Below, piece by piece: positions 29,859-32,665 of a stretch of DNA of 64,000 nt (its first letter is position 1; each line of letters opens with the position of its first letter). Position numbers and translations under genes: made by a program. The stretch lies in the NCBI RefSeq assembly GCF_046105845.1, contig NZ_CP151004.1; one strand, written 5' to 3'. The notes beneath the pieces were generated by a model. The model was not told the DNA's origin. It worked only from the letters and a program-made list of their open reading frames with translations, and ran no database searches. The DNA comes from Escherichia coli. GTDB lineage: Bacteria > Pseudomonadota > Gammaproteobacteria > Enterobacterales > Enterobacteriaceae.

Positions 29859-31350
<1,492 letters not shown>

Positions 31351-31394
31351 GCAGCTTTTGAAATGGCGAGACAGAATTTTACTGACTCGCCGCA

Positions 31395-31545
31395 GCCAAC
31401 TCTTCTTCTGACACCCCGGTAAAACGCATGATGTCCGCAAGAGGGACTCCGGATTACAGCATTCTTTTGGCGATATCCGGGGCTTCCAGGCGTCGATCCA
31501 ATAAATAACCAATCAGGTAACTAATAAGATATTCTCTTTCTGCAT
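31395..31545 (-). pseudogene. degenerate fragment duplicating the C-terminal coding segment of rpnA
   Basis: DNA at about 31400-31530 aligns, with substitutions and small deletions, to rpnA 3' coding DNA at about 31596-31700; minus-strand translation gives ...PDIAKRML*SGVPLADIMRFTGVSEE, compared with rpnA ...[27 protein letters not shown], interrupted by a stop. Confidence 0.55.
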
Positions 31546-31569
31546 CTGTCATTAAAACCATCCTTTACG

Positions 31570-32463
31570 TTATTGATGATTTATTTCAGCAAGGTCTTCA
31601 ACCGTCAGGCTGGTAAATCGCAGAACGTCCTCAAGAGAGACTCCGGCATCCAGCATGGTTTTGGCAATATTTAGGGCGTTGGTACGTATACCTTTCTGAA
31701 ACCCTTCCTGCCGCAATCTTTCCGCAATAGTCATTAAACTCTCCTTGTGTTTGGGTGAACGTTCGGCAACGCCGTCGATAAAATCGTTAAAACGTACCGC
31801 ATCGCCGGTTTGCAAGATGTAATTAAACAGCCCTTTGATTTGTCTGTCATTAGCGTATCCACTACTTAATAAGCAGGCCATTTGCTCTACCAGCCCCATC
31901 AGATCGCGTTGACGGATATGTTTTTGAATTAACTCCAACAGCGCCATGCGTCGGTGCTGCATGATTTCATCATCAGGCATGACAGTGACATCAATCAGCG
32001 GAAATGCAGAGGCATAAAGCTGCCTTGCCAGGTTGGGATCGGTAAAACAATCCAGCCAACACAGCGAATAGGGATAGGGGCTTTCAATACCGTGGTAAAA
32101 CAACAATGGCACCACCATCGGCAACGTTTTGTATCCGGCATCAAGGTGATTTTGCATTGCGGCAATGGCGTAACGCATCATGCGAAATGCGATCAGTTTG
32201 TTTGAGGTGCTTTGATGTTCAATCAGACAATAGATATATCCTGGTCCTTGTTCCGTTTTCACCGACCACAGCACGTCGGAATAGCTTTCACGCAGATCGT
32301 CATCAATAAAGCTGCTCGACTCCAGCTTGAGGGTTTTCATATCACAGAGCGCGTGAATGGGTGCCGGTAAATGAAACGCAAGAAAATCGCGTGCCGTCTC
32401 CGGTTGGCGTAAAAAGAGTTTGAACAGCGCATCGTGTGGGGTGGAACTCTGCTTTTTGCTCAT
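31570..32463 (-). CDS. rpnA: Rpn-family recombination-promoting nuclease (YhgA-like, PD-(D/E)xK transposase_31 fold)
   Basis: 297-aa [71 protein letters not shown]...; recognised as YhgA/RpnA; sits between bioH and feoC. Confidence 0.9.
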
Positions 32464-32665
32464 GGCGTTCCTTCACCTGTTATTTGAATGCCGCGACTCT
32501 ACGCGCCACTCCACACCTGTGCATTAGCCAGTTTTCATCCCTGCGAGACGCTTTCAGAGGAACTTGCGCCGTGCTGCAAGGGTTACATTTTTATGGAAAG
32601 TCGCACGCAAAAAAGCCCGGATGCAAACGCATACCGGGCTTTTCAAAACTGGTGATGGAGTATGG

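What the first reader, a model, noticed from the sequence alone, without database searches (positions are those of the whole stretch)
31380..31560. Degenerate duplicate of the rpnA C-terminal coding segment directly downstream of rpnA
The DNA between bioH and rpnA contains a second, decayed copy of the last roughly 40 codons of rpnA (compare ctgacaccccggtaaaacgcatgatgtccgcaagagggactccgg with gtcaggctggtaaatcgcagaacgtcctcaagagagactccgg). Rpn (YhgA-like) proteins are recombination-promoting nucleases, and I recall reports that their C-terminal segment can be expressed separately as a small inhibitory protein. A nearby remnant of exactly this segment could be a footprint of Rpn-mediated local rearrangement or a decayed extra copy of such a C-terminal ORF.
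Basis: partly seen in the sequence, partly recalled or inferred. Interest (0 to 1): 0.45.

Follow-up and report, generated by a model that had tools for sequence, protein, structure and literature searches.

The report
Broken second antitoxin gene after rpnA
The DNA between bioH and rpnA holds a second stand-alone copy of the small RpnS antitoxin module of the RpnA nuclease, cut short here by a stop codon. This kind of downstream copy is already described for two sister genes, so the finding is real but adds only a new example.

Summary
Window 31379-31565 (minus strand) is a complete second copy of the rpnA C-terminal RpnS unit, not just about 40 codons. It has a ribosome-binding site (AAGGA), an ATG, an N-terminus MTDAER and 57 codons. 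A TAA at codon 33 (31454-31456) interrupts it, leaving a 32-codon ORF that covers only the first helical half.

Intact 57-aa versions sit at the same feoC-rpnA-[ORF]-bioH position in other Escherichia. The data source tags them Pfam HTH_Rpn_C.

Among 5,426 complete E. coli genomes:
- 853 carry this two-module layout.
- At least 826 of those share the same TAA.
- None has the intact CAA form.

Most E. coli, K-12 included, lack a 206-nt block (window 31496-31701). Their single rpnA tail is therefore an S1/S2 chimera. The window's "remnant" is the orthologue of the C-terminal 35 residues of K-12 RpnAS (PDB 7TH0). At least two further S1/S2 fusion junctions exist in nature.

Zhong et al. 2023 described such downstream "rpnSs" genes, and their loss by fusion, for rpnC and rpnE (ypaA). 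I found no description for rpnA.

Verdict: a real feature and a new member of a known kind. It is most likely a pseudogene in this strain. Interest is moderate to low.

The parts
31570..32463 (-). rpnA (RpnA-L), 297 aa, PD-(D/E)XK nuclease with Transposase_31 domain. Residues D63, E82 and Q84 are present.
   Evidence: ORF list. Pfam PF04754 E=2e-91. RefSeq annotation of the identical strain VCSW5.
31741..31746 (-). Ribosome-binding site AAGGAG of the internal rpnA-S (module S1). These are the K240/E241 codons mutated by Zhong et al. to abolish RpnAS.
   Evidence: Sequence check. Paper text.
31570..31734 (-). Module S1: internal RpnA-S ORF of 54 aa ([54 protein letters not shown]), starting at M244 of rpnA.
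   Evidence: Start position taken from Zhong et al.. No nonsynonymous differences among 7 alleles.
31553..31569 (-). 17-nt spacer between the rpnA stop and the S2 start. It contains the S2 ribosome-binding site AAGGA (31561-31565), 8 nt before the ATG.
   Evidence: Same layout as rpnE-ypaA in K-12: stop, AAGGAG, ATG.
31454..31552 (-). Module S2, truncated ORF of 32 codons (MTDAEREYLISYLIGYLLDRRLEAPDIAKRML) plus the TAA nonsense codon at 31454-31456. The mechanical ORF list starts it 9 nt earlier (ATG 31559-31561, 35 aa).
   Evidence: Identical or near-identical 32-aa products were called in many public contigs.
31379..31453 (-). Module S2 after the nonsense codon: codons 34-57 (SGVPLADIMRFTGVSEEELAAASQ) plus the original stop at 31379-31381. 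This is the helix-turn-helix part and the orthologue of the K-12 RpnA C-terminus.
   Evidence: Residues 23-57 of the repaired S2 match PDB 7TH0 (RpnA-S), E=2.2e-12.
31496..31531 (-). Three imperfect 12-nt units encoding YLIS-YLIG-YLLD in the first helix of S2. They lie where RpnS proteins carry their variable four-residue repeats.
   Evidence: Read from the sequence and alignment A2. E. albertii alleles vary by 1-3 copies of YLISYLLDR. Tandem Repeats Finder reports nothing here.
31496..31701 (.). 206-nt block absent from K-12-type rpnA alleles: the S1 tail, the spacer and the first 19 codons of S2. Its ends can slide by 2-3 nt within the G-run microhomology.
   Evidence: Alignments. Removing it in silico gives a gap-free 238-nt sequence that is 215/238 identical to K-12.
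30580..31350 (+). bioH, convergent neighbour. Its stop lies 28 nt from the original S2 stop, the same distance as from the rpnA stop in K-12.

Best explanation
The segment is an 'rpnA-Ss' gene: a free-standing second copy of the RpnS antitoxin module, immediately downstream of rpnA on the same strand. It arose by tandem duplication of the unit [RBS, internal start, C-terminal three-helix domain].

In an intact system RpnS binds the matching C-terminal domain of the full-length nuclease RpnL and blocks its DNA cleavage (shown by others for RpnA, RpnB, RpnC and RpnP2). A second copy would supply a further, diverged antitoxin-type protein.

In this strain a C-to-T change turned codon 33 (CAA in E. 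albertii and E. ruysiae-type alleles) into TAA. That removes the helix-turn-helix half and leaves at most a 32-residue peptide covering the first helical half. rpnA keeps its own internal antitoxin (S1), which is under tight constraint. The downstream copy is therefore most likely a dispensable pseudogene here.

The two modules have also recombined with each other several times. The commonest product, a 206-nt deletion, is the rpnA allele of K-12. K-12 RpnA-S therefore has an S1 head and an S2 tail.

What is shown: the homology, the anatomy, the nonsense codon, its population frequency, the intact orthologues, the chimeric alleles and the relaxed constraint. What is inferred: the direction of evolution, the lack of function of the truncated ORF, and co-transcription with rpnA-S.
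For: - **Similarity:** S1/S2 similarity is far above chance and includes the RBS and start.
- **Intact orthologues:** ten clusters of 57 aa (P0001-P0010). The six whose contigs were read lie between rpnA and bioH, and the source tags them PF27070 HTH_Rpn_C.
- **Solved relative:** residues 23-57 of the repaired S2 match the RpnA-S structure 7TH0, E=2.2e-12.
- **Fold:** 7TH0 is its top PDB match (probability 1.00, TM 0.51/0.63).
- **Frequencies in complete E. coli genomes:** 853 of 5,426 have the two-module layout. 826 hold an exact 28-mer spanning the TAA, and none holds the CAA version.
- **Ancestral codon:** codon 33 is CAA in E. albertii and E. ruysiae-type loci and GAA in K-12-type tails.
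- **Closest paralogue:** S2 scores higher against the rpnA S1 (85) than against the S modules of RpnB, C, D, E or YpaA (33-65).
- **Constraint (pN/pS):** 0.04 for the nuclease domain, 0.00 for S1, about 0.5 for S2.
- **Further decay:** frameshifted S2 variants occur in other contigs (P0011, P0015, P0039, P0045).
- **Chimeric alleles:** the K-12 junction occurs in at least 3,551 genomes and a junction after RFT in 42. A junction after IAK appears in P0018.
- **Plausible precursor:** L085 carries both modules with the K-12-specific EQSKALH segment in S2, so a single 206-nt deletion gives the K-12 allele.
- **Precedent:** rpnC-Ss and rpnE-Ss (ypaA), and their loss by fusion, in Zhong et al. 2023.
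Against: - No expression data exist for this allele, so 'pseudogene' is an inference.
- The RBS, ATG and 32-codon frame are unbroken in all five TAA-bearing alleles read (the window and four other genomes). The same TAA is nearly fixed in the lineage. Both fit a recent neutral mutation, but also a retained short peptide.
- The first helix of S2 (YLIS/YLIG/YLLD) is hydrophobic, unlike the charged/glycine four-residue repeats described for RpnS.
- S1 and S2 share only 46% identity, far less than RpnE-S and YpaA. A local duplication is therefore the simplest origin, not a proven one.
- The local Pfam copy lacks PF27070, so the domain call rests on precomputed labels and on the 7TH0 match.
- E. 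whittamii has the K-12-type tail, so the ancestral state cannot be read from species order alone.
- The pN/pS values come from 7-10 non-independent alleles.
Confidence: 0.8

Rival explanations
1. The truncated 32-residue ORF is itself a working small protein. It would be a first-helix-only peptide, translated just after rpnA-S, that pairs with or competes for the dimerisation helix of RpnA-L or RpnA-S and so tunes the toxin-antitoxin balance.
For: - RBS AAGGA lies 8 nt before the ATG and 17 nt after the rpnA stop, a layout that favours coupled translation.
- The frame up to the TAA is open in all five TAA-bearing alleles read (the window and four other genomes), and the same TAA is present in at least 826 genomes.
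- In the RpnA-S crystal the first helix forms the dimer interface.
Against: - pN/pS for S2 codons 1-32 is about 0.66, close to neutral, against 0.00 for S1.
- The S2 first helix differs strongly from that of S1. Zhong et al. show that even one extra four-residue repeat abolishes RpnS-RpnL matching.
- High identity among E. coli alleles does not by itself indicate constraint.
- No expression evidence is available.
Confidence: 0.1
2. The K-12-type single-module allele is ancestral. The window's layout then arose by insertion or gene conversion of a foreign 206-nt cassette (another Rpn tail plus the start of a small ORF) into rpnA, displacing the original tail downstream.
For: - The single-module form is the majority in E. 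coli (at least 3,551 genomes) and occurs in E. whittamii.
- S1 and S2 are only 46% identical, which would fit different sources.
- rpn genes move horizontally.
Against: - No donor was found. The block occurs once per genome, always at this locus, and never on plasmids or phages.
- The S2-specific N-terminus (YLIG/YLIS/YLLD) is present at this locus in E. albertii and E. ruysiae-type genomes.
- Several different S1/S2 junctions exist, and each needs both modules to have been present first.
- A single deletion at a G-run converts an L085-type allele into the K-12 allele. The reverse needs an exact insertion.
Confidence: 0.1
3. The similarity is chance, or the segment is only the conserved rpnA terminator or 3' UTR, or a small RNA.
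For: The segment lies in a 219-nt gap between convergent genes, where terminators are expected.
Against: - Alignment scores lie 15-19 standard deviations above shuffles.
- The similarity is in frame and protein-like.
- No terminator-like or promoter-like site lies in 31351-31569.
- No Rfam match comes near a gathering score.
- K-12 has only 28 nt between rpnA and bioH.
Confidence: 0.01

Closest known systems
ypaA (rpnE-Ss) and rpnC-Ss: free-standing RpnS homologues downstream of rpnE and rpnC in E. coli (Zhong et al., PNAS 2023, PMC10400941)
   Same: - Same strand, immediately after the rpn stop: 12 nt for ypaA and 17 nt here.
- Own AAGGA(G) ribosome-binding site, and a start with MT-AER.
- Present in some strains and absent in others.
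- Lost by deletion or by fusion to the rpn gene body.
- Closest to the S module of its own upstream gene.
   Different: - It is attached to rpnA, for which I found no description in the paper's main text or the preprint. The supplement was not readable.
- It is much more diverged from its upstream partner: 46% identity, against a local score of 218 for RpnE-S versus YpaA.
- Its first helix is hydrophobic.
- It is broken by a nonsense codon in nearly all complete E. coli genomes that have it.
RpnA-S of E. coli K-12, the intragenic antitoxin (crystal structure PDB 7TH0)
   Same: Residues 23-57 of the repaired S2 are 30/35 identical to RpnA-S residues 15-49. The DNA after the junction is 85% identical to K-12, against 69% for the window's own S1 tail.
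   Different: K-12 RpnA-S is translated from inside rpnA and has the S1-type head [11 protein letters not shown]. The window's S2 is a separate ORF with a different head and is truncated. On my reading K-12 RpnA-S is a fusion of the two modules.
Displaced 'orphan' C-terminal modules downstream of cdiA and rhs toxin genes (from general knowledge, not tested here)
   Same: It works in a similar way as an arrangement. An alternative C-terminal coding module lies just downstream of the main gene, shares a stretch of homology with it, and can be joined to the gene body by recombination to give a protein with a new C-terminus.
   Different: Those modules encode toxins with paired immunity genes and usually lack their own start. 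Here the module is the antitoxin/oligomerisation domain itself and has its own RBS and ATG. This is an analogy only, not family membership.

Membership tests
RpnS / HTH_Rpn_C (PF27070) small antitoxin module | Sequence homology to the C-terminal helical domain of Rpn proteins | tested here: met
   The repaired S2 matches PDB 7TH0 (RpnA-S) with E=2.2e-12. The intact orthologues P0001-P0010 carry the precomputed label PF27070 HTH_Rpn_C. The local Pfam copy gave no hit because it seems to lack this model.
RpnS / HTH_Rpn_C (PF27070) small antitoxin module | Own ribosome-binding site and start codon giving a product that begins MT-AE/D-R | tested here: met
   AAGGA at 31561-65, ATG at 31550-52, MTDAER. 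Compare AAGGAG-ATG-MTIAER in rpnA and ypaA.
RpnS / HTH_Rpn_C (PF27070) small antitoxin module | Uninterrupted ORF encoding all three helices | tested here: not met
   The TAA at codon 33 (31454-56) removes model helices 38-45 and 49-55. The ORF is uninterrupted in L003, L085-L090 and other loci.
RpnS / HTH_Rpn_C (PF27070) small antitoxin module | Compact helical bundle with a long first helix | tested here: inconclusive
7TH0 is the top Foldseek match, but with rmsd 9.5 and E=0.016. This applies to the repaired protein, not the truncated one.
RpnS / HTH_Rpn_C (PF27070) small antitoxin module | Variable four-residue repeats starting 8-20 residues after the start methionine | tested here: inconclusive
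   YLIS/YLIG/YLLD occupy residues 8-19. E. albertii alleles vary by 1-3 copies of a 9-residue unit. The composition is hydrophobic, not charged/glycine as described. TRF finds no array.
RpnS / HTH_Rpn_C (PF27070) small antitoxin module | Protein is made and blocks the cognate RpnL nuclease | not testable with these tools
   Needs tagging or ribosome profiling, plus toxicity or SOS assays.
rpnSs (downstream free-standing RpnS copy, as ypaA) | Lies directly downstream of an rpn gene on the same strand | tested here: met
   17 nt after the rpnA stop. The intact form has the same layout in L003, L004 and L085-L090.
rpnSs (downstream free-standing RpnS copy, as ypaA) | Groups with the S module of its own upstream gene rather than with other paralogues | tested here: met
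   Local scores are 85 against S1 and 33-65 against the RpnB, C, D, E S modules and YpaA. The margin is modest.
rpnSs (downstream free-standing RpnS copy, as ypaA) | Strain-to-strain presence/absence, with loss by deletion or by fusion to the rpn gene | tested here: met
   853 of 5,426 genomes have two modules. At least 3,551 carry the K-12-type fusion and 42 a second fusion type. E. albertii carries a fusion to rpnA codon ~69.
Intrinsic terminator / 3' UTR element / known RNA family | Stem-loop with U-tract, or a match to a curated RNA family | tested here: not met
   No terminator-like site in 31351-31569. Rfam gave only sub-threshold noise.

The most novel reading that the evidence does not exclude
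The downstream module may not be mere debris. It could act as a recombination partner that lets rpnA swap its C-terminal lock-and-key domain. Because RpnL and RpnS share that domain, one S1/S2 crossover re-tunes toxin and antitoxin together. The three or more natural junctions (after QEG, after IAK, after RFT) would then be products of this switching. The K-12 form now present in about two thirds of E. coli would be one such product, possibly driven by phage counter-defence and possibly promoted by the RpnA nuclease itself. A weaker variant is that the 32-residue first-helix peptide is still made and modulates RpnA.
Probability: 0.15. Interest if true: 0.6.

Novelty: new member of a known kind. 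Interest (0 to 1): 0.33.

Why it matters
The finding adds rpnA to the rpn genes known to carry a downstream stand-alone RpnS copy. It also shows that the reference K-12 RpnA-S, the protein that was crystallised and assayed, is probably a fusion of two diverged antitoxin modules. B2-type E. coli keep the unfused arrangement with a silenced second copy.

This gives Rpn researchers natural allele series for testing how the C-terminal domain sets toxin-antitoxin specificity: two modules, three fusion junctions, and nonsense or repaired forms.

For genome annotation, this 219-nt 'intergenic' gap is unannotated in every RefSeq record I inspected. It should carry a pseudogene or small-ORF feature.

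It does not reveal a new kind of system.

Tried and rejected
- **Promoter/terminator scan of 31250-32600:** nothing in the gap.
- **Rfam at a permissive E-value:** only sub-threshold noise.
- **Tandem Repeats Finder on 31300-31800:** no array. The 12-nt periodicity in the S2 first helix is my reading only.
- **Local Pfam scan of S1, S2 and P0008:** no HTH_Rpn_C hit, apparently because PF27070 is not in that copy.
- **tblastn of repaired S2 against phages:** no match, so no sign of a phage-borne mimic.
- **tblastn against plasmids:** three hits, all chromosome-sized records of 4.8-4.9 Mb filed as plasmids.
- **Species-level genome scan with RpnA:** returned mostly 40-55% identical paralogues from Photorhabdus, Xenorhabdus and others. 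Only E. whittamii was a close relative (98% identity); its feoC and bioH flanks confirm the same locus. It did not settle the ancestral state.
- **Protein search with the S1 tail:** only 7 short hits. These did reveal extra chimeric tails.
- **Direct counting of GAA-type intact S2 in complete genomes:** not attempted. A short query would not distinguish it from the K-12 fused tail, so 27 of the 853 two-module genomes remain unclassified.
- **First pN/pS run:** used a wrong S2 frame. It was discarded and redone.

Full report
**Setting**

The window is E. coli. The local gene order is gntX, bioH (+, 30580-31350), rpnA (-, 31570-32463, 297 aa), feoC, feoB. The 219-nt bioH-rpnA gap is 100% identical to strain VCSW5, where RefSeq annotates nothing in it. 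In K-12 MG1655 the same two genes are 28 nt apart and rpnA encodes 292 aa.

Yes. Both quoted strings are present.
- The best local DNA alignment between the rpnA 3' unit and the downstream stretch is 59 nt with 47 matches. It scores 58, against 16.2 +/- 2.2 for shuffles.
- At protein level the score is 82, against 20.7 +/- 4.0 for shuffles, with 18 of 39 residues identical.
- One minus-strand frame of the gap reads MTDAEREYLISYLIGYLLDRRLEAPDIAKRML*SGVPLADIMRFTGVSEEELAAASQ*.

It covers the ribosome-binding site and start (AAGGAGAGTTTAATGAC in rpnA, AAGGATGGTTTTAATGAC in the gap) and the first residues (MTIAER versus MTDAER).

**What the unit corresponds to**

Zhong et al. (PNAS 2023, PMC10400941) showed that each E. 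coli rpn gene contains an internal promoter, ribosome-binding site and start. These produce a small protein, RpnS, identical to the C-terminal tail of the full-length nuclease RpnL. RpnS is the antitoxin of the toxic RpnL.

For RpnA the start is M244, and the ribosome-binding site is the AAGGAG of codons 240-241. In the window these are 31732-31734 and 31741-31746. The duplicated unit therefore begins exactly at the RpnS ribosome-binding site and ends at the stop codon. I call the internal copy S1 (31570-31734) and the downstream one S2 (31379-31565).

The same paper describes free-standing second copies, 'rpnSs', downstream of rpnE (ypaA) and of rpnC in some strains. [quoted passage not shown] In K-12 the rpnE stop is followed by AAGGAGAGATTAATGACTATT, the same layout as here. 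Neither the paper's main text nor the preprint mentions such a copy for rpnA. The supplement could not be read. A literature search found nothing later on this.

**Is S2 a gene elsewhere?**

A search with the repaired 57-aa sequence found ten clusters of intact 57-aa proteins from E. coli and E. ruysiae. The source tags them PF27070 HTH_Rpn_C. The search also found many 32-aa products ending at the same stop as in the window, and several frameshifted variants.

The six intact clusters whose contigs were read sit at the same place, feoC-rpnA-[57 aa]-bioH. Codon 33 differs by lineage:

| Codon 33 | Where found |
|---|---|
| CAA (Gln) | E. ruysiae-type loci (L003), L087, E. albertii |
| GAA (Glu) | L085, L086, K-12-type tails |
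| TAT (Tyr) | one metagenomic allele on a window-like background (L090) |
| TAA (stop) | the window and the four other two-module complete E. coli genomes in which I read the codon |

A 34-nt query in which every 28-nt seed spans the codon found the TAA form in 826 complete genomes. The CAA form was found in none. Since 853 genomes carry the two-module layout, at least 97% of them share this nonsense codon.

**Family evidence**

- Residues 23-57 of the repaired S2 match the RpnA-S crystal structure 7TH0 at E=2.2e-12.
- An AlphaFold model of the repaired protein (pLDDT 84) has helices at 3-19, 24-33, 38-45 and 49-55. 7TH0 is its best PDB match, though with a loose superposition.
- The stop at codon 33 therefore removes the two C-terminal helices and leaves only the first helical half. 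In RpnA-S that part forms the dimer interface.
- Among the K-12 S modules, S2 is closest to the rpnA S1 (score 85, against 33-65 for the others). This fits a local duplication, though an old one.
- Residues 8-19 (YLIS-YLIG-YLLD) lie where RpnS proteins carry variable four-residue repeats. E. albertii alleles vary by one to three YLISYLLDR units. The hydrophobic composition is atypical.

**The unexpected part**

In 5,373 of 5,426 complete E. coli genomes something matches the gap. In all but 853, only the bioH-proximal ~135 nt match, and they match the 3' end of rpnA itself.

Aligned with K-12, the window has an extra 206 nt directly after the codons for AERLRQEG. Deleting 31496-31701 in silico gives a gap-free sequence that is 215/238 identical to K-12. 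The K-12 tail after the junction is 85% identical to S2 and 69% identical to S1. The 'remnant' is therefore the orthologue of the canonical K-12 tail, and K-12 RpnA-S has an S1 head and an S2 body.

A metagenomic E. coli allele (L085) has both modules. Its S2 reads ...YLLG-EQSKALHIAK..., the exact K-12 sequence after the junction. One deletion between two G-runs would produce the K-12 allele from it.

Counts of each layout among the 5,426 complete genomes:

| Layout | Genomes |
|---|---|
| Two modules (S1 + S2) | 853 |
| K-12-type fusion (junction after QEG) | at least 3,551 |
| Fusion after RFT (O145 strains) | 42 |

- A further fusion, after IAK, appears in protein P0018.
- In E. albertii most of rpnA is deleted, and codon ~69 is fused to the S2 repeats.

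**Direction of change**

I infer that the two-module state is older and the fused forms are derived.
- Every fused form can arise from the two-module state by one deletion.
- No donor for the 206-nt block exists elsewhere in E. coli chromosomes, plasmids or phages.
- The S2-specific head occurs in E. albertii and E. ruysiae-type genomes.

This remains an inference. E. whittamii has the K-12-type tail, and I could not build a species-wide tree.

**Constraint**

Across 7-10 alleles, summed over pairs, pN/pS is 0.04 for the nuclease domain and 0.00 for S1 (36 synonymous and 0 nonsynonymous differences). For S2 it is about 0.5, at 0.66 before and 0.33 after the stop position. S2 evolves under much weaker constraint than S1, in intact alleles too. 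The sample is small and the pairs are not independent.

**Other readings tested**

No terminator-like or promoter-like site lies in the gap. No RNA family matches. The 'UTR/terminator' and 'chance' readings are rejected.

**How it most likely works**

- In an intact two-module locus, transcripts from the internal rpnA promoter would carry S1 and then S2, whose start lies 17 nt after the S1 stop. Both small proteins would be made (inferred from the layout and from the ypaA precedent).
- In this strain S1, identical to the tail of RpnA-L, remains the cognate antitoxin.
- S2 can yield at most a 32-residue peptide lacking the helix-turn-helix half. It is most likely non-functional.
- Whether that peptide is made or does anything cannot be decided here.

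**Verdict**

The feature is an rpnSs-type gene of rpnA that has become a pseudogene in this lineage. It is a new member of a known kind. The useful side result is that the reference K-12 RpnA tail is a fusion product of the two modules.

Noticed in passing
L093 159-790 (E. coli O145 RM9467-C1, between rpnA and bioH): A PemK/MazF-family toxin and AbrB/MazE-family antitoxin pair occupies the position that S2 holds in the window. The rpnA of this strain has a different S1/S2 chimeric tail, with the junction after RFT. The same junction occurs in 42 complete genomes. The rpnA-bioH gap seems to be a small hotspot for toxin-antitoxin cargo.
   Followed up: partly
L096 985-2015 (E. coli 118UI): An IS5 element is inserted in rpnA. 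The leftover rpnA 3' fragment is annotated as an 'ISNCY family transposase' pseudogene, which looks like a mis-naming of an Rpn fragment.
   Followed up: no
L007 3160-4500 (Escherichia whittamii): rpnA is interrupted after about codon 215 by roughly 1.4 kb. The insert carries a 376-aa ORF (MKRAYKYRFYPTPDQVELL...) that resembles IS200/IS605-family TnpB/OrfB proteins. That resemblance is from my own knowledge and was not tested. The K-12-type tail follows the insertion.
   Followed up: no
L098 5817-6002 (K-12 ypaA, b4543): RefSeq marks ypaA (rpnE-Ss) as a pseudogene, although Zhong et al. 2023 detected the tagged protein. Annotation of these small downstream RpnS genes is inconsistent. S2 is not annotated at all in the six RefSeq records with the two-module layout that I inspected.
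   Followed up: partly
L090 2001-2174 (metagenome contig): On a window-like S2 background, codon 33 is TAT (Tyr) instead of TAA, restoring a 57-aa ORF. This may be a reversion of the nonsense codon. It was seen in two protein clusters (P0001, P0002), each on a single contig; only P0001's contig (L090) was read.
   Followed up: partly
window 31684-31695 region (S1 codons ~257-260): S1 alleles differ by a 12-nt (four-residue) insertion or deletion: [14 protein letters not shown] in the window, FQKGIRAIAK in L086 and L092. This is the four-residue length variation reported for RpnS proteins, here within rpnA itself.
   Followed up: partly
window 32535-32644 (-): A weak, sub-threshold Rfam match (Bp2_287, 26.5 bits against a gathering score of 70) lies in the feoC-rpnA intergenic region. 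That region contains a GC-rich hairpin followed by a T-run (aaaaaagcccgg...ccgggctttt), most simply the feoC terminator.
   Followed up: no
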